Shown here one piece after another: positions 1-13,233 of a DNA stretch of 20,000 nt. Both the position numbers and the translations under genes were made by a program. The notes under the pieces are model-generated. The model was not told where the DNA came from. It saw only the letters and a program-made list of their open reading frames with translations, and made no database searches. The DNA is taken from IMG/VR virus record IMGVR_UViG_2061766007_000322; one strand, 5' to 3'. The DNA comes from an uncultured virus (IMG/VR IMGVR_UViG_2061766007_000322) (Duplodnaviria > Heunggongvirae > Uroviricota > Caudoviricetes). Position 1 is the stretch's first letter. Each line of letters opens with the position of its first letter.

Positions 1-1
1 T

Positions 2-403
2 AAAGGAGTTACAGAGATTGGTGATGGTGTGTTTCAGGGTTGCGACTCACTTAAATCTGTAATGATTCCTGAAGGGGTTACAAAGATCGGTGTGGGTGTA
101 TTTTGTTATTGCAACTCACTCGAATCTGTAGTGATTCCTGAAGGGGTTACAGAGATCGGTGAAGCTGCGTTTTGGGGTTGCAACTCACTTAAATCTATAG
201 TAATTCCTGAAAGTGTTACAAAGATCGGTGAGAAGGTATTTTGTTATTGCAACTCACTCGAATCTATAGTAATTCCTGAAAGTGTTACAGAGATCGGTTA
301 TAGGGCGTTTTTGGGTTGCGACTCACTTAAATATATAGATATTCCCAAAGGAGTTACAAAGATCGGTGATGATGTATTTCTGGGTTGTGACTCGCTTAAT
401 TAG
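2..403 (+). CDS. BspA-family (LRR_5/TpLRR) leucine-rich repeat protein, copy 1; 5'-truncated by the window edge
   Basis: Frame is open from position 2 (KGVTEIGDGVFQGCDSL...), so the ORF-track start at 29 is internal. 23-aa repeats IPEGVTxIGxxAFxxCxSLxSxx. Ends with the C-cap DVFLGCDSLN and TAG at 401-403. Confidence 0.9.
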   Translation, partial: KGVTEIGDGVFQGCDSLKSVMIPEGVTKIGVGVFCYCNSLESVVIPEGVTEIGEAAFWGCNSLKSIVIPESVTKIGEKVFCYCNSLESIVIPESVTEIGYRAFLGCDSLKYIDIPKGVTKIGDDVFLGCDSLN

Positions 404-444
404 ATAACAAATTTCTGAATGGACAATGATTCATAAATAAAAAA

Positions 445-475
445 AGAGGCTGTACTATTGCCAAGTATAGCCTCT
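445..475. terminator. Terminator-like hairpin after LRR copy 1, lacking a + strand U-tract
   Basis: AGAGGCTGTACT-attgcca-AGTATAGCCTCT, a 12-bp stem with one G.T pair. A-tract upstream, no T-run downstream. Homologous to the hairpins at 1382 and 3174. Confidence 0.6.
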
Positions 476-502
476 CATTAATACAGAAAGGACGTATTTA
501 TT

Positions 503-1339
503 ATGAAAGAAAAAATTTTTATTGTACCTGATGGTACAACTATAATCACAAATGGTATGATACCAGACGATACCACTATTGTAATAATTCCCGAAGGAGT
601 TACGGAAATCGGTGAAGATGCGTTTTGTGGTTACGGCTCACTCAAATCTATAGTAATTCCTGAAGGGGTTACAAAGATCGGTGCGGGTGCGTTTTGGAGT
701 TGCGGCTCGCTTAAATCTGTAGTGATTCCTGAAGGGGTTACGGAGATCGGTGAGAAGGCATTTTGTTATTGCAAATCACTTAAATCTGTAGTGATTCCTG
801 AAGGAGTTACAGAGATCACTGAGAAGGTATTTTGTGGTTGCGACTCACTTGAGTCTGTAGTAATTCCCAAAGGTGTTACAAAGATCGGTGAGGGAGCATT
901 TAGCGGTTGTACGTCACTCAAATTTATAGAGATTCCTGAATGGGTTACGGAGATCGGTGATGATGCGTTTTGGGGTTGTGACTCTCTTAAATCTGTAGTG
1001 ATTCCCGAAGGAGTTACAAAGATAGGTATGGGTGCGTTTTGGGGTTGCACGTCACTCAAATCTATAGAGATTCCTGAAGGGGTTACAGAGATCGGTGAGG
1101 ATGCGTTTTGGGGTTGCACGTCACTCAAATCTATAGAGATTCATGAAGGGGTTACCGAGATAAGTGAGAGAGTATTTTGTGATTGCAAATCACTCGAGTC
1201 TATCGTAATTCCCAAAGGAGTTACAAAAATCGGCGATGGTGCATTTAAAGGCTGTAAATCACTCAAATCTATAGTAATTCCTGAAGGGGTTACGGAGATC
1301 GGTAATGATGTATTTCTGGGTTGCGACTCTCTCAATTAA
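503..1339 (+). CDS. BspA-family (LRR_5) leucine-rich repeat protein, copy 2 (278 aa, 11 modules)
   Basis: SD GAAAGGA at 486-492. N-cap MKEKIFIVPDGTTIITNGMIPDDTTIVI, then 11 23-aa repeats ending in the C-cap DVFLGCDSLN. No signal peptide or TM segment visible. Confidence 0.93.
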   Translation: MKEKIFIVPDGTTIITNGMIPDDTTIVIIPEGVTEIGEDAFCGYGSLKSIVIPEGVTKIGAGAFWSCGSLKSVVIPEGVTEIGEKAFCYCKSLKSVVIPEGVTEITEKVFCGCDSLESVVIPKGVTKIGEGAFSGCTSLKFIEIPEWVTEIGDDAFWGCDSLKSVVIPEGVTKIGMGAFWGCTSLKSIEIPEGVTEIGEDAFWGCTSLKSIEIHEGVTEISERVFCDCKSLESIVIPKGVTKIGDGAFKGCKSLKSIVIPEGVTEIGNDVFLGCDSLN

Positions 1340-1381
1340 ATATAAAATTTCTAAATTGACAATGATTCATAAATAAAAAAT

Positions 1382-1420
1382 GAGGTTGTACTATTGCCAA
1401 GTACAACCTCTTTTTTATTT
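1382..1420 (+). terminator. Intrinsic terminator after LRR copy 2, probably bidirectional
   Basis: GAGGTTGTACT-attgcca-AGTACAACCTC, a perfect 11-bp stem, followed by TTTTTTATTT and preceded by AAATAAAAAA. Confidence 0.85.
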
Positions 1421-1565
1421 TTATTTCGTAGATTACACATTTATAATCCAATACGTTCTATCGAAAATATTACAATGAGTTTTAATAGTCATTGTGCTGA
1501 TTAAATAGAAATGTATTGAGCAATATATATTTGATGTTCTAATCAAAATGAAAGGAAGTAATATT

Positions 1566-3132
1566 GTGGAAGAAAAAATTTTTAATATACAATCAGGTAC
1601 AACTATAATCACAAAAGGTATGGTACCAGACGATACTACTATTGTAATAATTCCTGAAGGGGTTGCGGAGATCTGTGAAGATGCGTTTTGGGGTTGCGAC
1701 TCGCTTAAATCTGTAGTAATTCCCAAAGGGGTTACAAAGATCAGCGATGGNNNNNNNNNNAGAAATCGGTAGGAAGGTATTTTGTGGTTGCGATTCACTC
1801 GAGTCTATCGTAATTCCCAAAGGAGTTACAAAGATCGGTGTGGGGGCATTTAGCGGTTGTACGTCACTCAAATCTATAGAGATTCCTGAAGGGGTTACAG
1901 AGATATGTATGGGTGCGTTTTGTGATTGCAAATCACTCGAATCTATAGAGATTCCTAAAGGAGTTACAGAGATCGGTGAGGATGCGTTTCGGGAGTGTAC
2001 ATCGCTTAAATCTGTAGTAATTCCCAAAGGGGTTACAAAGATCAGCGATGGTGCATTTTATGGTTGCGACTCGCTTAAATCTGTAATGATTCCTGAAGGG
2101 GTTACGGAGATCGGCGAGAGGGTATTTTGTGATTGCAAATCACTCGAGTCTATAGTAATTCCCAAAGGAGTTACAAAGATATGTGACGGTGCATTTAAAG
2201 GATGTAAATCACTCAAATCTATAGTAATTCCTGAAGAGGTTACGGAGATCGGTGAGGGTGCATTTTACGATTGTGACTCACTTAAATCTATAGTGATTCC
2301 CGAAGGAGTTACAAAGATCTGTAAGGAAGCGTTTTGGCATTGTAAATCGCTTAAATCTGTAGTGATTCCTGAAGGGGTTACGGAGATCGGTGAGGATGCG
2401 TTTTGGCATTGCACATCGCTTAAATCTGTAGTGATTCCTGAAGGGGTTACAGAGATCGGCGAGCGTGCGTTTTGGCATTGCACATCGCTTAAATCTGTAG
2501 TGATTTCTGAAGGAGTTACAGAGATCGGTGAGTATGCGTTTTCCTGTTGTACGTCGCTTAAATCTATAGAGATTCCCGAAGGAGTTACAAAGATTGGTGT
2601 GGGTGTGTTTTGGCATTGCACATCGCTTAAATCTATAGAGATTCCCGAAGGGGTTACAGAGATCGGTGAGCGTGCGTTTTGTGGTTGTGTGTCGCTTAAA
2701 TCTATAGAGATTCCTGAAGGGGTTACAAAGATCGGTGAGCGTGCGTTTCAAGAGTGTATGTCACTTGAATCTGTAGTGATTCCTGAAGGGGTTACAGAGA
2801 TCGGTAAATATGCGTTTTGCTGTTGTAAGTCGCTTAAATCTATAGAGATTTCCGAAGGGGTTACAGAGATCAGTGCGTATGTGTTTTTCTGTTGTACGTC
2901 GCTTAAATCTATAGTAATTCCTGAAGGAGTTACAAAGATTGGTGTGGGTGTGTTTTGGGGTTGTACGTCGCTTGAATCTGTAGTACTTCCTGAAGGGGTT
3001 ACAGAGATTGGTGAGGGAGCGTTTCGAGAGTGTACGTCGCTTAAATCTGTAATGATTCCTGAAGTAGTGATTCCAGAAGGGGTTACAAAGATATGTGAGG
3101 ATGTGTTTCTGGGTTGCGACTCACACAATTAG
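1566..3132 (+). CDS. BspA-family (LRR_5) leucine-rich repeat protein, copy 3 (>=21 modules; interrupted by a 10-N assembly gap at 1751-1760)
   Basis: GTG at 1566 aligns with the ATG of copy 2 (VEEKIFNIQSGTTIITKGMVPDDTTIVI vs MKEKIFIVPDGTTIITNGMIPDDTTIVI) and has SD GAAAGGA upstream. ORF-track pieces 1548-1772 and 1747-3132 are the two sides of the N gap. There are 20 modules after the gap and the C-cap is DVFLGCDSHN. Confidence 0.85.
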
Positions 3133-3167
3133 ATATCAAATTTCTGAATTGACAACTATTTATAAAT

Positions 3168-3220
3168 AAAAATGAGGCTGTACTTGGCAATAGTACAGCC
3201 TCATTTTTTTATTTTTATTT
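3168..3220 (+). terminator. Intrinsic terminator after LRR copy 3, probably bidirectional
   Basis: AAAAATGAGGCTGTACT-tggcaat-AGTACAGCCTCATTTTT, a perfect 17-bp inverted repeat running into a T-tract. Confidence 0.88.
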
Positions 3221-3265
3221 CATAGATTACACATTTATAATCCAAAATGATAAAGGTGATAAAAA

Positions 3266-4321
3266 ATGAATAAAGATACAAAAGAAGCGTTTATAGACGC
3301 ATTAATGTCAAGACCTGGTATTTATACAAAAAAGGTTAACGACAATGAATATAGAACAAGATGTCCTTTATGTGGTGATTCTAAAAAGAATGAAAATACA
3401 GGACATATGTATATAAAAGTAAATGTAAACGATAACTCTCCAATTCAATTTCATTGTTTTCTTTGTGAAGAAGGTGGAGTATTAAAACCATCAATGTTGT
3501 CAATGCTCGAAATAGATGATATTAATTTAAAATCATCATTAACTGTTTTAAATAAGTCTGCAGATAAAATTGATAAAAAAGGAATAATTGATGGTGGGAC
3601 TTTAAAAATTTTTGATTATGAACTTCCCGAAATAAAACGGTCAGATAAAACTAAATATATAGAAAATCGTCTTGGAATTAAATTACCAGATTCTGCATTT
3701 AAAAAGATGAAAGTAATTACATCATTAAGAGAATTTCTTATTCATAACAAGATAAAAAAACTTACATGCTCTGATAAAATAGCATATAATATAGAGAAGA
3801 ATTATGTGGGATTCTTATCATATGGAAACTCACATATTTTATTCCGTGACATTACAGAAAAACAAGAAATATCTTGGTTTAAATATCCTATAACAAAAGA
3901 TAGTTCTGTTAATAGAATATTCTATTCTATGGACGCTGAAATTGATTTATTTACTTCTGATGAAATTATAATAAATATTGCAGAAGGAGTTATGGATACA
4001 ATATCAGCACATTATAATCTTGGATATGATGGAGAAAATGTTCTTAACTTATGTGTATCTGGAAGATATTATAGTAGCTTAATTCTATTTTTAATATCCA
4101 TGGGTTTTATTGGTAGTAATATTACAATAAATATTTTTGCTGATAATGATTATATGTTCAATAACAAGAATAATGTAAATACTACAACACTTGGATATTA
4201 TAAAAAGATATTATCTGATTATAAACATCTCTTTGGAAAAATATATGTCTGGTATAACTTAAAGAGTAAAGACATAGGAGTTCCAAGAGATATGATAGAA
4301 CTTAAAAAATATATTATATAA
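3266..4321 (+). CDS. Phage DNA primase (T4 gp61/DnaG-like, Zn finger plus TOPRIM)
   Basis: N-terminal Zn finger RCPLCGDS...HMY...FHCFLC. TOPRIM motifs IAEGVMD and FADND, C-terminal KDIG. SD AAAGGTGA. Confidence 0.85.
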   Translation: MNKDTKEAFIDALMSRPGIYTKKVNDNEYRTRCPLCGDSKKNENTGHMYIKVNVNDNSPIQFHCFLCEEGGVLKPSMLSMLEIDDINLKSSLTVLNKSADKIDKKGIIDGGTLKIFDYELPEIKRSDKTKYIENRLGIKLPDSAFKKMKVITSLREFLIHNKIKKLTCSDKIAYNIEKNYVGFLSYGNSHILFRDITEKQEISWFKYPITKDSSVNRIFYSMDAEIDLFTSDEIIINIAEGVMDTISAHYNLGYDGENVLNLCVSGRYYSSLILFLISMGFIGSNITINIFADNDYMFNNKNNVNTTTLGYYKKILSDYKHLFGKIYVWYNLKSKDIGVPRDMIELKKYII

Positions 4322-4338
4322 AGCGAGGAAAATAAAAT

Positions 4339-4869
4339 ATGAAATACTATGTAAATGCTTATGTTAAAATCGACCATGTTAAAAATGGAAATAGGAAAGT
4401 TTTTCGAGCACCTACCACAGGTACACAAATTTATGGATTTGATAATCTCGAAAAGCACATTAGATTATTATGCAAAACCAGTAGTAAAACCTTTAGAAAC
4501 GCACTAATTTGTGATGATAATGACTGTGTAATTGAAAGTATGCATAATGATGAAAACAGATATGATTATGTAAAGCATATTAATAATACAGAAATATCTC
4601 CATTAGAAAAATTATTTCTTGAATTATTTTATAATGATAAGAGAACTTCTGACACAGCATTATCTACATATGACGAAATAGAAAAGTTTCTTGATAGTAG
4701 GAATTTACATGCTAAACCTATAGAAATAAAATCATTTGTTTCCGCAGTTTATCCATGCCTTTTGGGTAATGATTATAAATTTATGCTTTTAAAAGAAACA
4801 AAAGATTTTTATACATTAGAATTAGAAAATAGTGGATGGATATTTAAAAGATTAAATGTATATAGATAA
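4339..4869 (+). CDS. Hypothetical protein (176 aa)
   Basis: ORF with SD GAGGA, directly downstream of the primase and followed by a hairpin. No recognisable motif. Confidence 0.75.
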   Translation: MKYYVNAYVKIDHVKNGNRKVFRAPTTGTQIYGFDNLEKHIRLLCKTSSKTFRNALICDDNDCVIESMHNDENRYDYVKHINNTEISPLEKLFLELFYNDKRTSDTALSTYDEIEKFLDSRNLHAKPIEIKSFVSAVYPCLLGNDYKFMLLKETKDFYTLELENSGWIFKRLNVYR

Positions 4870-4873
4870 AATG

Positions 4874-4906
4874 AAGAACGTGATAACTACATATTATCAC
4901 GTTCTT
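4874..4906 (+). terminator. Terminator-like hairpin
   Basis: AAGAACGTGATAA-ctacata-TTATCACGTTCTT, a perfect 13-bp stem immediately after the stop at 4869. Confidence 0.7.
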
Positions 4907-4937
4907 ATTGATTATCAGTATTTTATATATAGATATT

Positions 4938-4947
4938 TATATATTAT
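4938..4947 (+). promoter_or_regulatory. Putative phage early promoter (TATATATTAT)
   Basis: Exact 10-mer also present, gene-oriented, at 13326, 15324 and 17839. Resembles the TATATTA(C/T) early-promoter motif of phiKZ/AR9-like phages. Confidence 0.7.
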
Positions 4948-4957
4948 TTTTGTAGTA

Positions 4958-5070
4958 AATGAGAGATGCTTATATAAGGCGTTTATATCTCTCATTACAT
5001 ATTATGGTCCGTACAGCCAGTAAATGTACCACCCATGCTCGGGTGACTGGACGAAAGTCTGGGGAAAGGA
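4958..5070 (+). ncRNA. Candidate structured 5' leader RNA upstream of the 127-aa ORF
   Basis: Stems 4958-4967/4987-4996, GTACA/TGTAC (5011-5029), CACCC/GGGTG (5030-5045) and GAC-GAAA-GTC (5050-5059). Possible pseudoknot CCAGT(5017-5021)/ACTGG(5046-5050). Ends at SD AAAGGA. No Rfam family recognised. Confidence 0.4.
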
Positions 5071-5076
5071 GCATTT

Positions 5077-5460
5077 ATGACAAATGAAATTAAAACAGAT
5101 GGAACGTCAGTTGATCTCGTGTTCTCAGCTTTTGCAGCACTCAAGCATCTTCATAGTATGTTTAACACAGTCTCAGAAACAGCACGTCCGGAAGCTGAGT
5201 GGCTTGAAAACGATGTTGTAAGAAAAGTGATCCGTATATCAATATCAACAGCTGTAGAAGAAGCAAACTGCATATCAAAAGAGATAAAGGCTGCAATTGA
5301 CAAACTTCAGACGGCGAGTGTCTTGAATGAAAATGAAGAGGATAGTATGAGAGAAGCACTGATGCACATATCAGCAGAGGTAGAATTCATTAAAAACCAG
5401 CTTATCAATAAACAAACAATGATTCATGAAATTGATGTATACTATGACGAAACTGAATAA
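5077..5460 (+). CDS. Hypothetical protein (127 aa, predicted helical/coiled-coil, acidic); apparent stand-alone transcription unit
   Basis: SD GAAAGGAG at 5064-5071. Own promoter motif upstream and own terminator downstream. Confidence 0.8.
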   Translation: MTNEIKTDGTSVDLVFSAFAALKHLHSMFNTVSETARPEAEWLENDVVRKVIRISISTAVEEANCISKEIKAAIDKLQTASVLNENEEDSMREALMHISAEVEFIKNQLINKQTMIHEIDVYYDETE

Positions 5461-5484
5461 CGAGCATAGCAATCTGATCACAGC

Positions 5485-5528
5485 AGAACTCGGCATCGAC
5501 ACTCAAGTTGGTGTCGGGTTCTTTTTTT
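5485..5528 (+). terminator. Intrinsic terminator
   Basis: AGAACTCGGCATCGAC-actcaa-GTTGGTGTCGGGTTCT, a 16-bp stem with four G.U pairs (so it folds well only on the + strand), followed by a T-run. Confidence 0.85.
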
Positions 5529-5581
5529 ATTATTTTTTAGCTAACTTAGTAATAAACTATTATTAAGGAGGCTTTTTAATT

Positions 5582-6859
5582 ATGCTTTATGAAATTATAA
5601 GTAAAGATGAAACCCCGATTTCACAAATGCATATCTATTTGAAAAACAAAACTAATGATGATGGTGGAAATCTTCCTGAGATATTACATGATTTAGCTGT
5701 TGCAGAAAGTGTTAATCCTCTTTACGCATTTGCTGTATATTGTGTAATTACTGATAATATTACAAAAGAACCGAAAAATGCTAATAAATATCCTACAAAA
5801 GAAGTTATGCTATTAGCGTTTATCCAATATCTTAAAGGTATGGCAACTACTATTGGGTTAAATAAAAAACAGGTGAGTATATTATATGACAATCTTAAAG
5901 AATCGCAGCTTATTGGTCATTCACCAACTCTATTAAATCTTGATGGTGATTTATTCACATCACATTATGATAATAATAAATACTATAGTAAAGAGGCTGC
6001 AGATGAGGCAGAGGATTCATTTCCGTATTGGGTAATAAATATAGTTAAAGAAATAAAAAATAGTAATGAACTTATTACGCCAAAAAAGAATGTTGTATAT
6101 GAACTTCCCTATTATATCCAGAATATTTCTGGTACTTCTATACCCATTTATGATTCATTAGATAAAGAAAAAAGAAATGTAATTGGTAATATTCCACCAA
6201 CTGGTCTTGAACCTGTATTCAAAATTGAAAGAAACTGTGCAAGATTACTTTCATCCGTGTATGCATATGTTGATTTAAATGACAAAATGATTATTCCTGT
6301 AAAACATCTTGAAGATTATTCTGAACTCGAATTGGCTAATGTTGATGAAGTTATATTCCCTAAATTACCATTTGATATAATTGTAAAAGATTCTATTATT
6401 GGTAGGTATGGAATTAATAATCACTATAATACAGATGGTGACCATGAATATAAAACAGATGATAAAATATGTATAATAAACGTATATATGAATACGTATG
6501 GTGTTACTGAAGATGGATTTTTTATTCCATTTGACTTTTCGCATATAAAATTCTATGAAGAGCAAAAAATAGAAGAGTCTGTATCTATTTCTCAGGAACA
6601 TACAAAACTGACAGATGGTTTTAATGTTAAAGAAAGATATGTAGTATGTGTAAAATGTACAAATGAACAGACAAAAATTAAAACATTAGATATACTCAGA
6701 AAACATGTAAAAGAAACAGAACCATATGTATATGAAAATACAATGGGTATATTTGTTATTATAGGTTCATATAACACATTCGATAAAGCATGTTCAATGA
6801 GAAAATCATCTCTTAAATTTGGTTGTAAAGCATCTATTATTGATACAGAAAATTTATAA
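5582..6859 (+). CDS. Peptidoglycan-binding protein: degenerate glucosaminidase (GH73-like) domain, SH3b-like region and C-terminal SPOR-like domain
   Basis: N-terminus IISKDETPISQMHIYLK...AESVNPLYAFAVYCVITD...YPTKEVMLLAFIQYLKGMA...SPTLLNLDG resembles clostridial glucosaminidase domains. IPIYDSLDKEKRNVIGNIP is SH3b-like. FVIIGSYNTFDKACSMRKSSLKFGCKASII is SPOR-like. SD AAGGAGG. Confidence 0.6.
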   Translation: MLYEIISKDETPISQMHIYLKNKTNDDGGNLPEILHDLAVAESVNPLYAFAVYCVITDNITKEPKNANKYPTKEVMLLAFIQYLKGMATTIGLNKKQVSILYDNLKESQLIGHSPTLLNLDGDLFTSHYDNNKYYSKEAADEAEDSFPYWVINIVKEIKNSNELITPKKNVVYELPYYIQNISGTSIPIYDSLDKEKRNVIGNIPPTGLEPVFKIERNCARLLSSVYAYVDLNDKMIIPVKHLEDYSELELANVDEVIFPKLPFDIIVKDSIIGRYGINNHYNTDGDHEYKTDDKICIINVYMNTYGVTEDGFFIPFDFSHIKFYEEQKIEESVSISQEHTKLTDGFNVKERYVVCVKCTNEQTKIKTLDILRKHVKETEPYVYENTMGIFVIIGSYNTFDKACSMRKSSLKFGCKASIIDTENL

Positions 6860-6864
6860 AAAAT

Positions 6865-6906
6865 ATAGATAGAGCAATAGTATATTTTATCTATTGCTCT
6901 ATCTAT
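6865..6906. terminator. Hairpin between convergent genes (bidirectional terminator)
   Basis: ATAGATAGAGCAATAG-tatattttat-CTATTGCTCTATCTAT, a perfect 16-bp stem between the stops at 6859 (+) and 6906 (-). Confidence 0.8.
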
Positions 6907-7589
6907 TATACTCTTGGTAAATGTTGATATTTACCATGACATATGTCAAGCATCAGTGTTGTTGTTTTATTTATATCATACAATTCATTACGAATAAAAA
7001 CAATATCAGTATTGTCTACATTTGATACAAAACATGGTACGTGTATAGAAATTTCTGTATTATTTTCAATAACTTTTTCAAATGCACGAAATTGTTCGTA
7101 TTGTTCATATAATCTTCTAAACATTTCACGGTAGTTTTGAGTTTTATTAACATATTCTCGTTCACACGCTCTATCTGTAATAATTTTGTTACTTGCATAA
7201 ATATATATAAATGTCATATTTTTTTCATCGAACGCATCTTTAAATGCCTGAATTGTATCCTTTGTTCCAATTGAGATATATTCTCGTTTGCTACTCATAT
7301 TTTCTGGTTTGCCTGTACCATAGTAGACAATATCATTATCAGAACCACTAAGATGTGATTTATAGGTTCTATATTCAAATATAATACCAGAGTTATACAA
7401 CTCCATAAATTCTTTATCTGTAACAAAATTATATGCTGACTCTGGTTCATTCGGACGTTGAGAGCGAGTTGTATATAATGGGAGGTACATTAACTTCTCT
7501 TCATCATAATTGCATATTTTTAATGCATTATTAAGCATTGTATCCTTACCACTACAACTTCGCCCCATTAACGAAATAACTTTACACAT
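6906..7589 (-). CDS. Guanylate kinase-like nucleoside monophosphate kinase
   Basis: P-loop GRSCSGKDT. GK motifs YTTRSQRPNE, YNFVT, FEYRTY and YYGT. Confidence 0.85.
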   Translation of the reverse strand: MCKVISLMGRSCSGKDTMLNNALKICNYDEEKLMYLPLYTTRSQRPNEPESAYNFVTDKEFMELYNSGIIFEYRTYKSHLSGSDNDIVYYGTGKPENMSSKREYISIGTKDTIQAFKDAFDEKNMTFIYIYASNKIITDRACEREYVNKTQNYREMFRRLYEQYEQFRAFEKVIENNTEISIHVPCFVSNVDNTDIVFIRNELYDINKTTTLMLDICHGKYQHLPRV

Positions 7590-7596
7590 CTTTTTA

Positions 7597-9081
7597 TCAT
7601 ACCTCCATATTTAACATAATAATTTCTTTACACTTCTTTTCAAATACTGGTCTGTGACGTTTAAACATTTGATATACATAATCTATACCCAAATCTACTA
7701 AATAAAATAAATAGGTGTCATCAGTGTCTGAGTATGGTCTAAGACGACCTCGTAATTGATCCGCCAATGCTTTTGAACCTATCGGTTCTGTATTAATAAG
7801 GACTCTTAATCCTTTTATATCATCTCCTTCACCAATACTTTTAATGGTTGCTATTATAATATCACAATTCATAGCAGCTTCTTTTTCTTCATCAGATTTT
7901 CTACTGTGTACTATACCAATAGATTTGTTTGTACAATCTTTAATATAATCAGCAATAATATCTAATGAATCTATTTTTGGTGCGATAATTAAAATTTTAC
8001 CTTTGAGACGATTAACTTTTATAAGAATACTTTCAATAACTCTTAACATAGAATTTCTTTCATTATGTTTCAATTCATAATCAATATATTTGAAAGTATT
8101 AAATCCATATCTTCCACCAACTATTTGGGTTACAGTGTATATCGATGGCCTTGACTGAAATGTTGTACATATAAGATTTATATGTTTTCTTACTCCATCA
8201 TATTGTAATGTTTCCTCACCAAATCTATAAAGAGAAGCATACGCTCTTTCAAAGATTCTTATTTCCTTTGGATCACTACGGGTAAATGTTGCTGTAAGAT
8301 AATAATTTCTTTTTACATTTGAAAAATAGTCTATCATTAATGAATTCTCAAAAAATCTATGAGCCTCGTCTACTACTTTAACACCAACTCTTATCTTTTT
8401 AAAGAAATCATGTAATGCCTCCCATGAATTCATTCTTGCATATGATGCCAATGTCTGGTGGTTTACAAGATATATATCACCTTCAAGCTCGTTATTCATG
8501 ATTTTATTCATTTCATTAGAACTATCTATAACAACAACCCTATCTTCAGTAATATTGGACTTGTTAATAAATTCTAAATACCATTGGTCCCTTAACCTTG
8601 TTTTATGAGTTATAACTATTGCTTTAAGATTTAAATCAGCAATCGCAGCAATCATACAATAGGTTTTACCAGCACCAGTATCAAGATTTAATCCATATTG
8701 ATTATAGTAATTTCCTTTTGTAAATCTTCCTTTGGATGTTAGGAAATCAATACTATCTTCTTGAATTACATCTCTTGGTTTATAATTCATATCAATTTTA
8801 TTTTTTATATTTTCACATCTATCAACATAATCAATACTAATCTTATTAGGAGTTGCATTGAATTCGTTGGCTAATAAATTAAGCGATGTACCTCTTGGTA
8901 AATAAAGTATATTATTTTCTATATAATAACCAATTGGTATATATTGATGTGTCACGTCGTCCCATTTAGAAAACATTTTTTCCACTTTTGGAGAATCATT
9001 TTTCATATATGGGAATACTTCAATATGCGTACTATATATTCTAATAGAATAGTCTTTATCTATTAGTAGTTTATTTATCAT
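7597..9081 (-). CDS. Superfamily 2 DNA helicase (UvsW/ResIII-like, DEAH)
   Basis: Q-motif KPRDVIQ, Walker A DTGAGKT, motif II VVDEAH, motif III LTAT, motif V IGEGDDI, motif VI QLRGRLR. Start placed at ATG 9081 because the ORF-track GTG at 9090 is part of the SD GAGGTG. Confidence 0.9.
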   Translation of the reverse strand: MINKLLIDKDYSIRIYSTHIEVFPYMKNDSPKVEKMFSKWDDVTHQYIPIGYYIENNILYLPRGTSLNLLANEFNATPNKISIDYVDRCENIKNKIDMNYKPRDVIQEDSIDFLTSKGRFTKGNYYNQYGLNLDTGAGKTYCMIAAIADLNLKAIVITHKTRLRDQWYLEFINKSNITEDRVVVIDSSNEMNKIMNNELEGDIYLVNHQTLASYARMNSWEALHDFFKKIRVGVKVVDEAHRFFENSLMIDYFSNVKRNYYLTATFTRSDPKEIRIFERAYASLYRFGEETLQYDGVRKHINLICTTFQSRPSIYTVTQIVGGRYGFNTFKYIDYELKHNERNSMLRVIESILIKVNRLKGKILIIAPKIDSLDIIADYIKDCTNKSIGIVHSRKSDEEKEAAMNCDIIIATIKSIGEGDDIKGLRVLINTEPIGSKALADQLRGRLRPYSDTDDTYLFYLVDLGIDYVYQMFKRHRPVFEKKCKEIIMLNMEV

Positions 9082-9100
9082 TTTATTCACCTCTTAGTAT

Positions 9101-9138
9101 AAAAAATAACCGGATCAGAACGAATCTTAATCCGGTTA
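9101..9138 (-). terminator. Intrinsic terminator after the 91-aa ORF
   Basis: TAACCGGAT(9107-9115)...ATCCGGTTA(9130-9138). On the - strand it is followed by TTTTTT. Confidence 0.7.
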
Positions 9139-9172
9139 CCTTTTTTATTTAATTGTGTTCGGGTTTTTATTA

Positions 9173-9448
9173 TTAGAAAATAGAACCGCTTCTTCTGGTG
9201 TTAGCTCTGTTATTTGTACCACTAAAACCAGATACAGAAACAAGAGCCTCTGTGAGAATTGCAACTCTTTCTTCATTGCTGAAGTCTTTCAGCATATTTG
9301 TAATATCCTGTTTTGTTCTGTCGTCAAGACGGCCAGAGTTGGCACGAGTCTTAACCGCATCGGCAATAATACCTGCGGCTTTCTTAATAATCTGATTTCT
9401 TTTTGTTACCAGGTCCTGAATTTCCTGACTTGCTGTAGTAAAGTCCAT
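9173..9448 (-). CDS. Hypothetical protein (91 aa)
   Basis: SD AAAGGAAG upstream, terminator downstream, co-oriented with neighbouring genes. Confidence 0.75.
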   Translation of the reverse strand: MDFTTASQEIQDLVTKRNQIIKKAAGIIADAVKTRANSGRLDDRTKQDITNMLKDFSNEERVAILTEALVSVSGFSGTNNRANTRRSGSIF

Positions 9449-9572
9449 AATATGACTTCCTTTCTTATCTTATTATTTTTTTTATTATCATGTCCGCAAG
9501 CATATAACAATTTATAATAGGTTATGAGAAGTTTGTTAAAACTTGCGGTTATGACCTTTTTAAACAGTTACA

Positions 9573-10322
9573 TTATTCACTGGCTTCAGGGATTTTTGAC
9601 TTGAGAAATTCAATAATATCAATTCCCTCTTCTCTAAGCTCTGATACTGTCATCGCACTATCCTTCTCCGTTAAATATACAATCGGTTCAGGAAGCTTAT
9701 CGTCCGCGGTATCTTTTGAATAGGCAATAATAACTGTTTCATACTGTAAGAGTTCTGCCCATGAATTGTAATACGGAACAGACATCTTGGTTGATTTATT
9801 AAGCCCACTCTGCATATTGGACAATCTGTGTGGTTGTCCCGTAGGAAGTTTAGGCTTAATTTTTGCCATACTAATGCTGAGAACATTAAGTATGGTCTTC
9901 GTGATTTTTTTCAGAAAATCATCATTTGCATAAACTACAGGACGATATTTTTCCGATTGAGCATTAAGCCCGTCAATAAACATCTTATCGTAATCTGCAT
10001 CAGGGTTTTCCTTTGCCATGTTGATGATGTCATTTACAGATCTGGCTACAAGTTTATCTGGGTCAAAATATTTTTTGTACTCAATATCAAATCTGGATTT
10101 TTCAATAGCATTATTAGACTTCCAAAAGTAAGGATACAGCGTCCTTACATCATCAGGTTTATTTTTTTTATATATCCATACCTGATTATCATAGCTGTCA
10201 ATGTATCCTTTACCATCAACAAAATTCATCTCTTGGCTATCTTTATCCTTTGAGTTAAAGTAGCCAAGGACAGAAAAGGTATCTTTTGGCGTGAAAATAA
10301 ACGCTGGAAAAGATTTGACCAT
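9573..10322 (-). CDS. Hypothetical protein (249 aa)
   Basis: Long ORF with SD-like AAGGAGGCGAAGGCGGA upstream. No confident motif. Confidence 0.8.
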   Translation of the reverse strand: MVKSFPAFIFTPKDTFSVLGYFNSKDKDSQEMNFVDGKGYIDSYDNQVWIYKKNKPDDVRTLYPYFWKSNNAIEKSRFDIEYKKYFDPDKLVARSVNDIINMAKENPDADYDKMFIDGLNAQSEKYRPVVYANDDFLKKITKTILNVLSISMAKIKPKLPTGQPHRLSNMQSGLNKSTKMSVPYYNSWAELLQYETVIIAYSKDTADDKLPEPIVYLTEKDSAMTVSELREEGIDIIEFLKSKIPEASE

Positions 10323-10351
10323 TTCCGCCTTCGCCTCCTTGTTTTTTATTT

Positions 10352-11011
10352 TTAAATGAACACGTTCTCGTCGTATTTGTGTTTAATGAGAGCGTTCAAA
10401 TAAAATTCAACTATATCACATGTTACGGGTGAATAATTGTTGGCGTCAACACCAACATTAAGACCATATTTTGTTATTTTCCTAAGACCGTGTATATGAC
10501 CAAAAAGATTATAAACAGGATTTGTGATAGAATCCGTAAGGGAATCAAATTCGCATACAAATGGTTGTGACGGATGTCTTCTTGATTCATCACACACAAC
10601 GTCGCCATTAGCCGTCATCACACAATCAATTGGTTTATGAACAAGATTGACAAGTCCAATAAAACCAAATAAGGTATTTGTATCTACTTGATTAAAGCAA
10701 TAATGACTAAGACACATGCCTTCAAAGCCGTCGACTATACTTCCCTTTACCTCAGAGTCATAGTTGCCACAAATAAGGATGTGCTTACCATTAAGATATT
10801 TAACCGTTTCCAAATCACCAAAATCGCCTATATGAAATGTAAGTGTATCATTATCAGCAATCTGGTTGAACCTATTTATAATAGTTTCGTCTGCTTCTGC
10901 GACTGAACAGAACGGTCTTTTATTCAGGAACAGATGGCGTTCGCTACCATAATGTTCATCTGAAGTAAACAAAACTTTTCTGTGCATTACATATTCATTT
11001 ATATTAAACAT
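10352..11011 (-). CDS. Calcineurin-like metallophosphoesterase
   Basis: Motifs TSDEHYG, HIGDF, GNYD, VH and FGHIH, plus the phage-type C-terminal LNVGVDANNYSPV. Confidence 0.88.
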   Translation of the reverse strand: MFNINEYVMHRKVLFTSDEHYGSERHLFLNKRPFCSVAEADETIINRFNQIADNDTLTFHIGDFGDLETVKYLNGKHILICGNYDSEVKGSIVDGFEGMCLSHYCFNQVDTNTLFGFIGLVNLVHKPIDCVMTANGDVVCDESRRHPSQPFVCEFDSLTDSITNPVYNLFGHIHGLRKITKYGLNVGVDANNYSPVTCDIVEFYLNALIKHKYDENVFI

Positions 11012-11045
11012 ATTTATTTCTCCTTTATCGTTTATTTACCATTAT

Positions 11046-11744
11046 TTACCATCCGACATATACATCGATGACATAGTCATTCCCTGTACCATAATCATAT
11101 ATTACTCCAAGCCCCCACGGTGTATAAACCGCAGAGAATCTGTCCATCGTATCAGGCGTATTAGAAGCAAGGCAGAGATTACCGTTACCATCACGCACAA
11201 ATCCATACTCATCAGTCCAGCGACCAGGAATATACAATCCATCGCCAGGAAGAACACGTTCGGAGTAATATGTAAAATAGTAGCCATCATATTCGATGAC
11301 TCCATTTTCTTTAAAGTAACCTGGAGAATACATCATATAACTTGGATAAGTATCGTATCCAAATCCATCAATAGAGTATTTTTCAGGAACATAAACGTCT
11401 CCAGCTACTGTAGTATCTTCAACAGGTTTTACCATAGTAAGCCAATCGCTATGCATGTAATAGTTGTGATTATCATACTGTATCTGAACCCAACCATTGT
11501 ATCTATCAGTAACATCGGTTGCGACAACTTCAGTACCAGGTTTATAAACATCAATAATTCTGGCATCAAGACTGGGTTCTTCTCTTACTCTTAACCAATC
11601 GGTCGTGTAAAGAATCATCCGGTCATATTCTTTCTCGATAACAACATCATTGTTTGCATCAAGTACTATAGATGTTGAATTTGTACATGCTACGCTAAAC
11701 AACATAGTCGATACCATTGCAGCAATTCTATTTTTAGCTTTCAT
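11046..11744 (-). CDS. Secreted/lipoprotein-like SH3b domain protein with a C-terminal 3D-like (putative lytic transglycosylase) domain
   Basis: Signal-like N-terminus MKAKNRIAAMVSTMLFSVAC. SH3b LRVREEPSLDARIIDVYKPGTEV...GWVQIQY...YMHSDWL. C-terminal TYYS...LAS...VYTPWGLGVIYDYG...IDVYV. Confidence 0.7.
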   Translation of the reverse strand: MKAKNRIAAMVSTMLFSVACTNSTSIVLDANNDVVIEKEYDRMILYTTDWLRVREEPSLDARIIDVYKPGTEVVATDVTDRYNGWVQIQYDNHNYYMHSDWLTMVKPVEDTTVAGDVYVPEKYSIDGFGYDTYPSYMMYSPGYFKENGVIEYDGYYFTYYSERVLPGDGLYIPGRWTDEYGFVRDGNGNLCLASNTPDTMDRFSAVYTPWGLGVIYDYGTGNDYVIDVYVGW

Positions 11745-12333
11745 TTGTTATACCTCTATTTCTTGTATTTTGTATTGTAGCCATCTTAATAGCTTCTAAT
11801 GATAATTGAGTCATATCTATTTTACTGAGCTCACTTATTAAATATTCTAACTCAGTGTATGTTAAATACGTATATGAACTCAACGAGTTAATATAAAGTA
11901 TTACACCTTCATATGCTTTACCGTTACTATCAGTAACTACCGATGGCTTTAATTTAATCTTTTTTGATGAGGATGATAACGCAGTAAATGTTTCAACATT
12001 CTCATTCACCATAAGTTCATTATTCATATAGAAAAATAAATCCTTATTATTGGTAAAATACATTGCACATTTTTTTAACATTTTTATCAATAAATAAAGA
12101 TAATATCTATTGAAGGTTATTGATGAGTTGTAGTTATATCCACCATCCTCAAAAATCTCTAATGTTACATAGGGGTGTGGAGCTATTTTTACATACTCGT
12201 TCCCATCAACAGTAAACTTAGAAATTATTGGTTGCATTTGTACAGCTGGCGAAACTACATCTTGACGTAATACTATACCAAATTTTACTTTGAGAGTATT
12301 TATCTTGAATAATTCAATTATCGCCCTATACAT
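11734..12333 (-). CDS. Hypothetical protein (199 aa)
   Basis: SD GGAGGTG upstream. Overlaps the next gene start by 11 nt, suggesting translational coupling. Confidence 0.8.
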   Translation of the reverse strand: MYRAIIELFKINTLKVKFGIVLRQDVVSPAVQMQPIISKFTVDGNEYVKIAPHPYVTLEIFEDGGYNYNSSITFNRYYLYLLIKMLKKCAMYFTNNKDLFFYMNNELMVNENVETFTALSSSSKKIKLKPSVVTDSNGKAYEGVILYINSLSSYTYLTYTELEYLISELSKIDMTQLSLEAIKMATIQNTRNRGITNES

Positions 12334-12415
12334 GAAGCACCACCTCCATTAATTTCAAAGTTACCACGATTATAAAAATATAAAAATCGTATGTAACATT
12401 TTGAACGGTCATCAA

Positions 12416-12451
12416 GGTGCGCGATGTATAACATCAAGCACATCGCACACC
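12416..12451 (-). terminator. Terminator-like hairpin downstream of the 161-aa ORF
   Basis: Minus strand GGTGTGCGATGT...ACATCGCGCACC, a 12-bp stem with one G.U pair and only a weak U-tract. Confidence 0.55.
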
Positions 12452-12484
12452 TAATAACCACGCCTATTTTACAAGCACGCCATA

Positions 12485-12970
12485 TTAAATTTCGTTGATT
12501 GCCTCCATAAGACGTTCATACGATTCCTTCAGAAACGCGACGTTCTTTTCACAAACATTGATCTTTGAGAGTATGACTCCGCGGTCATTCTCACTAAGAT
12601 ATTCATCGTTGACTATGTCTTTAAGTATATTCAAAAGGTTCGTATATTCACCAGACGTTTTTTTGGCGGTTTCACAATCTCTGTACAACCTTGTTATGGT
12701 TGCACTATCAACACGATGTTTGTTTTCCATATTGAACTTTTCTGCAAGAATCTTCTGGTTGTTGTCATAGGGTTTATTCTTACCATCATCAGAGTTATCA
12801 ACACCGATAGAACAATTCAATATATCGGTAACCTGTTCGCCTTTTGCCGACGACGCCATGATAATTTTTTCTATCTGTTCCATCAAGTTTTTGTTGCCTG
12901 ATTCAGGGATACTACCATCCTCAATAATCATAATTATTTTTCCTGCAAATGAATTTTCTCCGTTTTTCAT
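12485..12970 (-). CDS. Hypothetical protein (161 aa, C-terminal coiled coil)
   Basis: SD AAAGGAG lies within the end of the upstream ORF. Helical heptad-like C-terminus. Confidence 0.78.
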   Translation of the reverse strand: MKNGENSFAGKIIMIIEDGSIPESGNKNLMEQIEKIIMASSAKGEQVTDILNCSIGVDNSDDGKNKPYDNNQKILAEKFNMENKHRVDSATITRLYRDCETAKKTSGEYTNLLNILKDIVNDEYLSENDRGVILSKINVCEKNVAFLKESYERLMEAINEI

Positions 12971-12975
12971 AGTAA

Positions 12976-13233
12976 TTAATCTCCTTTTTCTGTCATTGGT
13001 TTTTTCGTAAAGAGCTCAACATGATGTCCTTCACTGTCGATATAGTACTTAACAACAGTACCACAAGTCTTACACCAGTTGATCGTTACCGTCATTTCTC
13101 CGAATTTCTGTTCATGAACACATACGAATGTATGGTTATGATTATAGAAATCAGAGGGGTCTTTGTTCTTCTGCTGAACTGCAGACGTATGACCTTCGCT
13201 TATTTCTTCAAGCGGTTCATCATAATAGTACAT
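12976..13233 (-). CDS. Small hypothetical protein, possibly Zn-binding (85 aa)
   Basis: SD GGAAGGA. Contains HNH..C.H...WCKTCG. First gene after the promoter motif at 13326-13335. Confidence 0.72.
   Translation of the reverse strand: MYYYDEPLEEISEGHTSAVQQKNKDPSDFYNHNHTFVCVHEQKFGEMTVTINWCKTCGTVVKYYIDSEGHHVELFTKKPMTEKGD

What the first reader, a model, noticed from the sequence alone, without database searches (positions are those of the whole stretch)
1..3245. Phage-encoded tandem array of variable LRR genes: a possible VLR-like diversified binder repertoire
Seen: at least three adjacent paralogues share the same C-cap (DVFLGCDSxN), and copies 2 and 3 share an N-cap. They differ in the number of 69-nt modules (11 in copy 2, >=21 in copy 3). 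The framework is nearly invariant at DNA level, while variation concentrates in about five codons per module (IG-xx-AF-xx-C-x). These positions are rich in W, Y, C, H, R, K, E and D (e.g. EDAFWG, ERVFCD, DGAFKG, KEAFWH, EYAFSC, KYAFCC, ERAFQE). No signal peptide, TM segment or wall anchor is visible in the complete copies, and the array abuts a phage primase. Known: BspA/LRR_5 proteins are typically surface adhesins of cellular organisms, and cap + variable LRR modules + cap is the architecture of lamprey VLRs. Inference: a jumbo phage keeps a rapidly reshuffled family of cytoplasmic protein binders, plausibly against host defence or regulatory proteins.
Basis: partly seen in the sequence, partly recalled or inferred. 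Interest (0 to 1): 0.85.

Follow-up and report, generated by a model that had tools for sequence, protein, structure and literature searches.

The report
Tandem leucine-rich-repeat genes in a giant phage
A giant phage from the ruminant gut carries at least three neighbouring genes for small leucine-rich-repeat proteins of a common bacterial type; the array is real and changes its repeat number by ordinary recombination, but nothing points to an antibody-like diversification system, and its function is untested.

Summary
Window 1-3245 holds at least three same-strand paralogous genes built from 69-nt (23-residue) BspA/TpLRR-type repeats (Pfam LRR_5). They share caps and a conserved 3' flank with a hairpin, and they lie directly upstream of a phage primase in a fragment of an AR9-like jumbo phage from ruminant gut.

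Two corrections:
- Copy 3 is broken by a 10-N assembly gap that sits in a 50-nt exact repeat. Its count of 21 or more modules, and even its continuity, are unproven.
- The framework is not invariant at DNA level. Synonymous diversity is about 0.36 and modules are 64-94% identical.

The 'variable' codons are the x positions that vary across the whole LRR_5 family. They evolve at dN/dS of about 1, against 0.07-0.2 for the framework. By motif they lie in the repeat's variable segment, not on the concave strand face. That face is homogenised here, the opposite of lamprey VLRs. No reverse transcriptase, deaminase or cassette library was found.

A sheep-gut contig lacks exactly two modules in frame, which fits ordinary repeat recombination. 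Similar tandem arrays without export signals occur in ruminant-gut bacterial MAGs (up to 70% identity) and in one 47-kb phage contig.

The function is untested. The proteins are most likely soluble binding scaffolds. The scan has noted LRR arrays in giant gut phages before, on other DNA.

The parts
2..403 (+). LRR_5 copy 1. Its 5' end is cut by the window edge. It holds 1 partial module, 4 full modules and the C-cap module ending DVFLGCDSLN.
   Evidence: (PF13306, E 5e-42)
446..474 (+). Hairpin in the conserved 3' flank of copy 1. It has no T-run and lies 28 nt before the start codon of copy 2.
   Evidence: read from the sequence; flank alignment
503..1339 (+). LRR_5 copy 2, complete, 278 aa: a 28-aa N-cap, 10 full 23-aa modules and a 20-aa C-cap module.
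   Evidence: (E 5.7e-120); AF2 model with pLDDT 96.7; fold matches 4fs7, 4gt6 and 4h09
1382..1410 (+). Terminator-like hairpin with a T-run after copy 2.
1411..1451 (+). 41-nt element, first copy (98% identical to 3205-3245). It contains TATAAT and lies upstream of copy 3.
   Evidence: family D15
1566..1750 (+). 5' part of copy 3: GTG start after an AAAGGAAG ribosome-binding site, then the N-cap, 1 full module and 10 residues of the next.
   Evidence: Pfam 27.3 bits
1751..1760 (.). Run of 10 N, an assembly gap inside the repeat. 1701-1750 is identical to 2002-2051.
   Evidence: alternative joins in contigs
1761..3132 (+). 3' part of copy 3: 1 partial module, 18 full modules, a 15-nt partial duplication (IPEVV, 3055-3069) and the C-cap module ending DVFLGCDSHN.
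   Evidence: (E 4.8e-165)
3168..3208 (+). Terminator-like hairpin with a T-run after copy 3.
3205..3245 (+). 41-nt element, second copy, just upstream of the primase gene.
3266..4321 (+). Phage DNA primase gene. It anchors the array to the phage backbone.
   Evidence: phrog_19847, E 1.8e-38; one Logan contig covers 2929-4947 without a difference

Best explanation
This is a tandem family of at least three small BspA/TpLRR-class (Pfam LRR_5) solenoid proteins without export signals, carried by an AR9-like jumbo phage of the ruminant gut.

Shown:
- The genes are whole duplicated cassettes: gene, conserved 3' flank and hairpin, and for copies 2 and 3 also a 41-nt downstream element.
- Scaffold residues are under purifying selection.
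- Five positions per module (10, 11, 14, 15, 17), in the variable segment of the repeat, change at a neutral-like rate.
- Module number differs between related phages through in-frame loss or gain of 69-nt units.

Inferred:
- The array expands and contracts by ordinary homologous recombination or slippage between modules. No programmed mechanism is involved.
- The genes were acquired from rumen bacteria, which hold the same kind of tandem arrays without export signals.
- The products are soluble binding scaffolds made inside the infected cell, that is, accessory host-interaction genes. The target is unknown.
For: Family and fold:
- PF13306 hits reach E 4.8e-165.
- The module fits the TpLRR consensus LxxLxLxxxLxxIgxxAFxx(C/N)xx (consensus read in PMC2946307).
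- The AF2 model of copy 2 has pLDDT 96.7. Its best structural matches are 4fs7, 4gt6, 4h09, PcpA 4cp6 and TpLRR 6mlx.

Selection:
- Across the 33 modules, framework dN/dS is 0.21 (0.065 for the strict core), against 1.04 at codons 10, 11, 14, 15 and 17.
- In the 16 most similar module pairs, variable codons show 27 non-synonymous and 8 synonymous differences. Core codons show 5 and 22.

Cassette duplication: the 3' flanks have 82% mean column identity and the N-cap DNA is 85% identical. The 41-nt element occurs exactly twice.

Recombination:
- Sheep-gut contig 18 joins 2629 to 2768, skipping 138 nt, with 1 mismatch in 237 nt.
- Contig 17 joins 1700 to 2002.
- Further chimeric joins appear in runs X1 and X3 (all).
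- Copy 3 carries a 15-nt partial duplication.

Phage linkage: one contig covers 2929-4947.

Foreign origin:
- GC3 is 0.31-0.36 in the LRR genes, against 0.14-0.23 in seven other genes.
- The closest relatives, up to 70% identical, are in Spirochaetaceae, Treponema and Clostridia MAGs.
- 16 of 76 bacterial loci hold two or more LRR ORFs. Loci L044, L047, L052 and L066 have shared N-caps and no hydrophobic N-terminus.

No export or anchor: only LRR-type Pfam hits were found, and the N-terminus forms strands of the solenoid.

A second phage example: L015, a 47-kb contig with a terminase, holds a tandem pair of 204 and 250 aa with 7 and 9 modules, the same caps, and variation at positions 10, 11, 14 and 15.
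Against: - There are no expression data and no known partner, so the intracellular role is inference only.
- In the only related jumbo genome found (292 kb), the five LRR_5 proteins carry a shared N-terminal domain, Ig-like repeats and a C-terminal domain. They look like fibre or adhesin proteins.
- A Goslar preprint places LRR domains on virion fibres.
- dN/dS of about 1 fits diversifying selection mixed with constraint just as well as it fits simple lack of constraint.
- Position 14 is 29% Cys and 29% Trp, against 4-5% in homologues. That is not neutral drift.
- The recombination evidence rests on short-read contigs from one sheep sample and on joins that may come from further paralogues or other organisms.
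- Copy 3 spans a gap.
- The shared 41-nt element may be a passive product of the duplication and not a shared promoter.
Confidence: 0.55

Rival explanations
1. The proteins are virion-associated or released adhesins. They would decorate the particle, or bind host surface or gut polymers, as LRR domains on phage fibres are thought to do.
For: - Solved LRR_5 relatives are mostly described as cell-surface proteins.
- The related 292-kb phage has LRR_5 domains in multi-domain, fibre-like proteins.
- A Klebsiella prophage match is annotated as a tail protein.
- In 25 IMG/VR loci, most LRR_5 ORFs are large multi-domain proteins.
- The Goslar preprint describes DUF7941-LRR proteins as a virion 'fibre cloud'.
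- Earlier scan notes e1-5657622 and e1-5709251 read LRR arrays in giant gut phages as fibres (unchecked).
- Structural phage proteins need no signal peptide.
Against: - The window's proteins are only cap-LRR-cap (278 aa), with no attachment, Ig-like or fibre domain.
- They lie among replication genes, on the same strand as the primase.
- The same architecture without export signals occurs in bacterial MAGs, where no virion exists.
Confidence: 0.22
2. This is the first reader's idea of a VLR-like, actively diversified binder repertoire. Variable codons would be under diversifying selection and modules would be reshuffled to generate new specificities against host defence proteins.
For: - There are several paralogues with different module numbers.
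- Variation is concentrated in five codons per module at dN/dS of about 1, while the scaffold is constrained.
- Trp, Cys and His are enriched at these sites.
- Module loss is seen in a related phage.
- Giant-virus FNIP LRR families are compared with VLRs in print (PMC9525666).
Against: - dN/dS is not above 1.
- The variable sites are the family-wide x positions, and they are less diverse here than in homologues.
- The strand-face positions are homogenised. VLRs vary on the concave face (that VLR fact is recalled, not from a call).
- The genes are complete ORFs with their own terminators, not an incomplete gene plus cassettes.
- No reverse transcriptase, deaminase or recombinase was found among the 21 ORFs.
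- No two of the 33 modules are identical, so shuffling is not very recent.
Confidence: 0.08
3. The genes are decaying or functionless passengers: bacterial LRR genes picked up by the phage and duplicated by repeat instability, with no role in infection.
For: - GC3 is foreign-like.
- dN/dS of about 1 at exposed sites.
- A truncated variant, in which the copy-3-type 5' part runs into the 3' flank after about 1.3 modules, is seen in runs X1 and X3.
- The hairpin after copy 1 has lost its T-run.
Against: - The ORFs of 278 aa and at least 456 aa are intact, with ribosome-binding sites.
- There is strong purifying selection on scaffold codons (dN/dS 0.065-0.21).
- The confident fold supports an intact protein.
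- Related sequence is present in runs of 13 studies.
Confidence: 0.1
4. The array, or its join to the phage, is an assembly artefact.
For: - The 10-N gap lies inside a 50-nt exact repeat.
- The array is shattered into contigs of about 200 nt in the likely source run, with several alternative joins.
- The window starts inside copy 1.
Against: - An independent assembler's contig runs from 2929 (inside copy 3) to 4947 (past the primase) with no difference.
- Contigs cover 1264-1640 (end of copy 2 to start of copy 3) and 316-515 (copy 1 to copy 2) exactly.
- The 41-nt element ties the flank of copy 2 to the region upstream of the primase.
- Only the internal structure of copy 3 remains doubtful.
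Confidence: 0.05

Closest known systems
BspA / TpLRR-class leucine-rich-repeat proteins (Pfam LRR_5, PF13306; solved examples 4fs7, 4gt6, 4h09, PcpA 4cp6, TpLRR 6mlx)
   Same: They share the 23-residue motif LxxLxLxxxLxxIgxxAFxxCxx, very strong Pfam scores and the same predicted fold. The same positions vary across the family.
   Different: The window's proteins have no signal peptide, lipobox, wall anchor or extra domain. They are phage-encoded and consist only of cap, repeats and cap, in tandem copies. They also carry extra Cys and Trp at motif position 14.
Tandem arrays of LRR_5 genes without export signals in ruminant and other gut bacterial MAGs (e.g. loci L044, L047, L052, L066)
   Same: Adjacent same-strand paralogues share a short N-cap, differ in module number and have no hydrophobic N-terminus. 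Identity reaches 70%.
   Different: They are on contigs binned as bacterial, although prophage or mis-binned phage origin was not checked. Their function is equally unknown.
Giant-virus FNIP/FGxxFN LRR paralogue families (CroV, Megavirus; PMC9525666, passages read)
   Same: These are large viruses that keep many LRR paralogues without export signals. The authors suppose they bind many ligands and compare them explicitly with VLRs. CroV588 appears among the structural matches.
   Different: They belong to a different LRR class (FNIP, 22 residues) and infect eukaryotic hosts. Some are fused to F-box or kinase domains. They number tens of copies, against at least 3 seen here.
Lamprey variable lymphocyte receptors
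   Same: The overall architecture is cap, variable number of LRR modules, cap.
   Different: The VLR features below are recalled, not from a call, apart from one sentence in PMC9525666. VLRs are assembled somatically from cassettes into an incomplete gene, use LRRNT/LRRCT caps, and vary on the concave face. Here the genes are complete, no machinery was found, and the strand-face positions are nearly fixed.
LRR domains on jumbo-phage fibres (Goslar DUF7941 proteins, preprint 10.64898/2026.04.21.720040, passages read; LRR_5 proteins of the 292-kb relative)
   Same: LRR domains encoded by jumbo phages, in several paralogues per genome.
   Different: Those proteins carry attachment or Ig-like domains and are large. 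The window's proteins have none.

Membership tests
LRR_5 / TpLRR-class LRR proteins | Pfam PF13306 score above the gathering threshold | tested here: met
   Scores of 143, 395 and 541 bits against a cut-off of 27.7. The 61-aa piece before the gap scores 27.3 bits.
LRR_5 / TpLRR-class LRR proteins | 23-25-residue repeat LxxLxLxxxLxxIgxxAFxx(C/N)xx | tested here: met
   Among the 33 modules, I8, F13, S18, L19 and V5 are invariant, and C16 is present in 32 of 33. The consensus was read in PMC2946307.
LRR_5 / TpLRR-class LRR proteins | Solenoid fold like solved BspA-type LRRs | tested here: met
   The AF2 model has pLDDT 96.7. Foldseek gives 4fs7 at E 6e-16 and TM 0.76, plus 4gt6, 4h09, 4cp6 and 6mlx.
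BspA-type surface adhesins in the strict sense | Export signal and surface anchoring (signal peptide, lipobox, sorting or Por domain) | tested here: not met
   No non-LRR Pfam domain was found. N-terminal residues 5-7 and 26-28 are strands of the fold at pLDDT above 90. No dedicated signal-peptide predictor was available.
VLR-like somatic assembly system | An incomplete receptor gene flanked by non-coding LRR cassettes | tested here: not met
   Copies 2 and 3 have a ribosome-binding site and start codon, and all three copies have a stop codon and a hairpin.
VLR-like somatic assembly system | Hypervariability on the concave strand face | tested here: not met
   Positions 3, 7, 20 and 23 have 0.7-1.3 bits here, against 2.6-3.2 bits in homologues. 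Variation sits at positions 10-17. Assignment to faces is by motif and DSSP only, because the model coordinates could not be read.
VLR-like somatic assembly system | AID/APOBEC-type deaminase or another dedicated enzyme nearby | tested here: not met
   None was found among 21 ORFs of the 20-kb window in Pfam or PHROGs. The rest of the genome was not available.
Diversity-generating retroelement target | A reverse transcriptase plus a template/variable repeat pair | tested here: not met
   No reverse-transcriptase domain was found. Apart from one 40-nt pair at only 70% identity elsewhere in the window, the direct repeats are the 69-nt module families, the N-cap pair and the 41-nt element. Adenine-specific substitution was not tested.
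AR9/PhiKZ-like jumbo phages (context) | Phage-encoded multisubunit RNA polymerase | tested here: met
   ORF 13394-15280 matches the AR9 and PBS1 RNA polymerase beta subunits (27% identity, E 1e-40). All 21 matching records listed are phages of about 250-275 kb. phrog_2943 also hits. A relative is present in a 292-kb viral genome.

The most novel reading that the evidence does not exclude
The phage keeps an expandable set of soluble intracellular LRR binders. The outward stripe of variable-segment residues (positions 10, 11, 14, 15, 17, rich in Trp, Cys and His) would be the binding surface. Each paralogue would neutralise or mimic a different host defence or regulatory protein, for example as a decoy for LRR-bearing bacterial NLR-like sensors. 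That would be a bacteriophage counterpart of the ankyrin and FNIP repeat families of giant viruses.
Probability: 0.12. Interest if true: 0.75.

Novelty: new variant of a known kind. Interest (0 to 1): 0.35.

Why it matters
Repeat-protein paralogue families are a well-known host-manipulation tool of large eukaryotic viruses. They are hardly explored in phages. My five literature searches found no paper describing small LRR_5 gene arrays without export signals in phages.

If these proteins act inside the cell, they would be a compact, easily expressed class of candidate phage effectors to screen against defence systems. If they are particle or surface binders, they bear on host range in the rumen.

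As it stands, the sequence evidence shows an ordinary, abundant bacterial LRR family that a jumbo phage has taken up and duplicated. The value of the finding lies in that context, not in any new mechanism.

Tried and rejected
Search for close relatives:
- An exact 50-nt primase stretch and a 20-nt N-cap stretch found nothing in IMG/VR.
- The primase protein found one 37% relative in IMG/VR and nothing in JGI metagenomes.
- The 21-nt element found one unrelated AT-rich 1.4-kb contig in JGI metagenomes. I rejected L011 as a chance match.
- Peptides of copy 2 found nothing in IMG/VR.
- blastn of 3266-9090 against the phage collection gave no match.
- No whole genome is held for the window.
- As a result, no orthologous locus comparison or site-model test was possible.

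Promoters:
- The sigma-70 scan found 29 sites against 24.8 expected, which is not informative.
- The AR9 late motif AACA-N6-TR (from PMC5312081) gave 22 matches against 42.6 expected.
- The 15-nt core of the 41-nt element gave 5 matches against 1.8 expected, and only the two known copies were exact.
- The time of expression therefore cannot be assigned.

Defence link: PADLOC gave nothing significant for 5 proteins.

Reads:
- All four runs laid were contigs, so no statement is possible on depth, transcript ends or rare variants.
- Parts of the array without cover in X5 and X6 prove nothing.

Assignment to faces is by motif and DSSP only.

Other:
- No complex prediction was sent.
- Two GenBank 'Bacteriophage sp.' records with many LRR matches (MT835639.1, MT836667.1) turned out to hold single giant LRR ORFs, not arrays of small genes.
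- Look-ups of earlier findings by place and by the sequence of the 3' flank and the primase gave nothing.


Full report
**What is there**

The first 3.2 kb of the window are dominated by 69-nt tandem repeats. Tandem Repeats Finder reports arrays at 3-399, 587-1335 and 1804-3064, with 5.8, 10.9 and 18.3 copies and scores of 388-1207. No such repeat occurs elsewhere in the 20 kb.

The repeats lie in three same-strand ORFs:
- 2-403, which is open at the window edge.
- 503-1339, 278 aa.
- A third that starts at GTG 1566 behind an AAAGGAAG ribosome-binding site and ends at 3132.

All three are Pfam LRR_5, the 'BspA type' repeat, at E 5e-42, 5.7e-120 and 4.8e-165. They also hit PHROGs 35892 and 18805, both of unknown function.

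Copy 2 has a 28-residue N-cap, ten full 23-residue modules and a 20-residue end module. All three copies end in DVFLGCDS(L/H)N. The N-cap DNA of copies 2 and 3 is 85% identical.

Each gene is followed by a conserved flank of about 100 nt with a hairpin. After copies 2 and 3 the hairpin scores as a terminator (1382-1410 and 3168-3208). After copy 1 it has lost its T-run and stands 28 nt before the start of copy 2.

A 41-nt element follows both terminators (1411-1451 and 3205-3245, 98% identical). It occurs only twice in the window. The duplicated unit was therefore the whole cassette, including what now lies upstream of the primase.

**Two corrections to the observation**

First, copy 3 contains ten N at 1751-1760. 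The 50 nt before the gap are identical to 2002-2051. The scaffold gap therefore sits in an exact repeat longer than a short-read k-mer.

Public contigs laid on the window show alternative continuations:
- A sheep-gut contig runs from the terminator of copy 2, through the start of copy 3, straight into 2002-2114.
- Contigs in the likely source run X1 and in an independent run X3 continue from 1738 into the 3'-flank sequence. That would be a truncated copy.
- X1 also has joins 1557 to 494 and 1689 to 2239.

So '>=21 modules in one gene' is conditional on the scaffold join. There are probably further paralogues outside the window.

Second, the framework is not nearly invariant at DNA level:
- The 33 full modules are 64-94% identical, with a mean of 77%, and none are identical.
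- Within-copy and between-copy identities are the same, 0.774 and 0.767.
- Framework codons have synonymous diversity of 0.36-0.37.

**Context**

The downstream genes are phage genes:
- primase (phrog_19847, E 1.8e-38);
- guanylate kinase;
- helicase;
- phosphoesterase;
- NAD-dependent ligase (phrog_3869, E 1e-93);
- a 628-aa protein matching the RNA polymerase beta subunit of AR9, PBS1 and other phages of 250-275 kb.

Primase (37%), ligase (41%) and the polymerase piece (30-55%) all have relatives in one 292-kb IMG/VR genome rated complete. The 'jumbo phage' inference is therefore reasonable.

The stretch 1340-1750 is held by runs of 13 studies, labelled bovine, sheep and other animal gut.

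The join of the array to the phage is real. One contig from an independent assembler covers 2929-4947 without a difference, and others cover 316-515 and 1264-1640. X1 may be the source sample, so this is independent of the assembler but not of the data.

**Are the variable codons special?**

Per-codon analysis of the 33 modules:

| Codon positions | Amino-acid entropy (bits) |
|---|---|
| 10, 11, 14, 15, 17 | 2.1-2.6 |
| 5, 8, 13, 18, 19 | 0 |

- Nei-Gojobori dN/dS is 1.04 at the five variable codons. It is 0.21 for the rest and 0.065 for the strict core.
- In the 16 most similar module pairs (87% or more identical; the pairs are not independent), variable codons show 27 non-synonymous and 8 synonymous differences. 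Core codons show 5 and 22. This again looks roughly neutral.

The same positions are the x positions in the consensus of 58 aligned family members, IPxxVTxIGxxAFxxCxSLxSIxIP.

I compared these modules with 461 modules from 55 homologues:
- The window's modules are less diverse at every variable position.
- Positions 3, 7, 20 and 23 vary strongly in the family (2.6-3.2 bits). Here they are collapsed to E/K or V/E (0.7-1.3 bits).

The module fits the TpLRR class motif LxxLxLxxxLxxIgxxAFxx(C/N)xx (PMC2946307, passages read). In the AF2 model of copy 2 (pLDDT 96.7), the strands fall on module positions 21-23 and 7-8.

The retained variation therefore lies in the 'variable segment' (positions 10-17). 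The strand faces are homogenised. As I recall, VLR hypervariability sits on the concave sheet, so this is the opposite of the VLR pattern. I could not read the model coordinates, so 'one face' remains an inference from the motif.

One feature is not neutral. Position 14 is 29% Cys and 29% Trp, against 4% and 5% in the homologues. Overall Cys content is 6.2% against 3.4%. This is unexplained.

**Mechanism of variation**

No reverse transcriptase, deaminase or recombinase was found among the 21 ORFs scanned. Copies 2 and 3 have their own start codons, and all three copies have a stop codon and a hairpin.

Evidence for ordinary repeat recombination:
- A sheep-gut contig (1 mismatch in 237 nt) joins 2629 to 2768, removing exactly 138 nt, which is two modules, in frame.
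- There is the 1700-to-2002 join described above.
- Copy 3 has a 15-nt partial duplication, IPEVV.
- Two-module blocks are shared between copies 2 and 3: modules 1139 and 1208 match 2089 and 2158 at 90-91%.

These are contigs, not reads, and come from one sample. The point is supported but not proven.

**Origin and relatives**

GC3 is 0.31-0.36 in the LRR genes, against 0.14-0.23 in seven other genes of the window.

The family is very large:
- 7,759 of 7,999 scored candidates matched at E of 1e-3 or better. The best identity was 61% and none was near-identical.
The best 76 loci were 46-70% identical. They came from Spirochaetaceae and Treponema, Clostridia, Bacteroidales and other lineages, many from ruminant MAGs.

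I scanned those 76 loci with a crude regular expression and a hydropathy window, not a signal-peptide predictor:
- 16 loci hold two or more same-strand LRR ORFs.
- Of 68 ORFs not cut by the locus end, 25 have a hydrophobic N-terminus and 43 do not.
- Loci L044, L047, L052 and L066 show adjacent genes with a shared short N-cap and different module numbers. This is the same architecture as in the window.

Among phages:
- 55 of 50,697 GenBank phage records have a match, all below 60% identity. The two records I opened hold single giant LRR ORFs.
- Of 25 IMG/VR loci, most hold large multi-domain or signal-peptide proteins. L015, a 47-kb contig with a terminase, has a tandem pair of 204 and 250 aa with 7 and 9 modules, the same caps, and variation at positions 10, 11, 14 and 15.
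- The related 292-kb phage has five scattered LRR_5 proteins. Those carry a shared N-terminal domain and Ig-like repeats, and none lies next to its primase.

**What it most likely does**

Shown:
- It is a constrained, well-folded LRR solenoid with no export or attachment domain.
- It exists in several copies in a jumbo phage.

Inferred: the products are soluble binding scaffolds made in the infected cell. I put this at about 40%. It is more likely than a virion or surface adhesin role (about 22%). The reasons are that the proteins consist of nothing but cap, repeats and cap, they sit among replication genes, and they have counterparts without export signals in bacteria.

The homogenised strand face could mean a common partner for all modules, or it could reflect recent common ancestry. 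The variable stripe could be a binding surface or merely unconstrained. dN/dS of about 1 cannot separate these. An anti-defence role is possible but nothing here tests it, and PADLOC gave nothing.

**Literature**

Five searches found no paper on arrays of small LRR_5 genes in phages:
- BspA + phage + leucine-rich repeat;
- leucine-rich repeat + jumbo phage;
- LRR_5 + phage;
- rumen + jumbo phage + repeat;
- phage-encoded + leucine-rich repeat + anti-defense.

Passages I read:
- the Goslar preprint, on LRR domains in virion fibre proteins;
- a coral-mucus vibriophage paper, which reports a weak LRR hit;
- the pir03 table, which has a BspA-annotated ORF;
- the SPLASH preprint, where the LRR_5 association was judged incidental;
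- the CroV FNIP structure paper, which compares viral LRR families with VLRs.

A jumbo-phage survey (PMC13037316) contains none of the four search terms. No supplements were opened.

**Earlier notes of this scan** (AI notes on other DNA)

- One note reports an array of LRR genes with a common early leader in an AR9-like giant phage.
- Another reports a recombining 69-bp LRR array on a probable fibre of a ruminant giant phage.
- Others report giant LRR fibre genes.

They agree that ordinary recombination, not a programmed system, drives the variation. They also strengthen the fibre rival. I found no sequence link between those windows and this one.

**Verdict**

The feature is real and the phage context is correct. 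It is an ordinary member of a very abundant repeat family, in an unusual minimal, multi-copy form without export signals. The VLR-like reading is not supported. Interest is moderate.

Noticed in passing
window 1751-1760, with 1701-1750 and 2002-2051: A run of ten N lies inside copy 3, and the 50 nt before it are an exact copy of 2002-2051. The scaffold join is in a repeat, and the segment 1761-2001 may be misplaced or may vary between strains.
   Followed up: partly
window 1411-1451 and 3205-3245: A 41-nt AT-rich element containing TATAAT stands directly after the terminators of copies 2 and 3, that is, upstream of copy 3 and of the primase. It may be a promoter shared by both genes, or only a by-product of the cassette duplication.
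   Followed up: partly
window 2-3132 compared with 3266-19988: GC3 of the LRR genes is 0.31-0.36, against 0.14-0.23 in seven other genes. Overall GC is about 0.40-0.43 against 0.25-0.33. This suggests acquisition from a donor with higher GC.
   Followed up: partly
window, module position 14 (and positions 9 and 15) of copies 1-3: There are extra Cys, Trp and His residues at variable-segment positions (FCxC, FWHC, FxCC). Cys and Trp are each 29% at position 14, against 4-5% in homologues. This may be a metal- or redox-related stripe. It is unexplained.
   Followed up: partly
window 3055-3069: A 15-nt partial duplication (IPEVV) lies in frame before the last module of copy 3. It is a footprint of slippage or unequal recombination.
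   Followed up: no
G001:C1:189042-192723 (locus L039 holds part of it): In the 292-kb relative, the homologue of the window's RNA polymerase beta-like gene is split into four matching pieces spread over about 3.7 kb, with unmatched stretches between them. These may be introns, inteins or inserted genes.
   Followed up: no
L015 1697-1790 and 2481-2575: In the 47-kb phage contig, the same stretch of about 90 nt precedes the second LRR gene and the following non-LRR gene of 150 aa. It reads as MHFTDAPRILKLFFETKSPADWCWVNTKMIM in one frame. This is reminiscent of the 'portable leader' noted earlier in the scan (e1-5658411).
   Followed up: no
window 11046-11744 (- strand): A 232-aa protein has a bacterial SH3_3 domain (E 2.4e-7) and no other hit. 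It may be a cell-wall-binding module, which would hint at a Gram-positive host.
   Followed up: no
window 4339-6859: Three ORFs of 176, 127 and 425 aa between the primase and the guanylate kinase have no Pfam or PHROGs hit, and only insignificant PADLOC hits.
   Followed up: no
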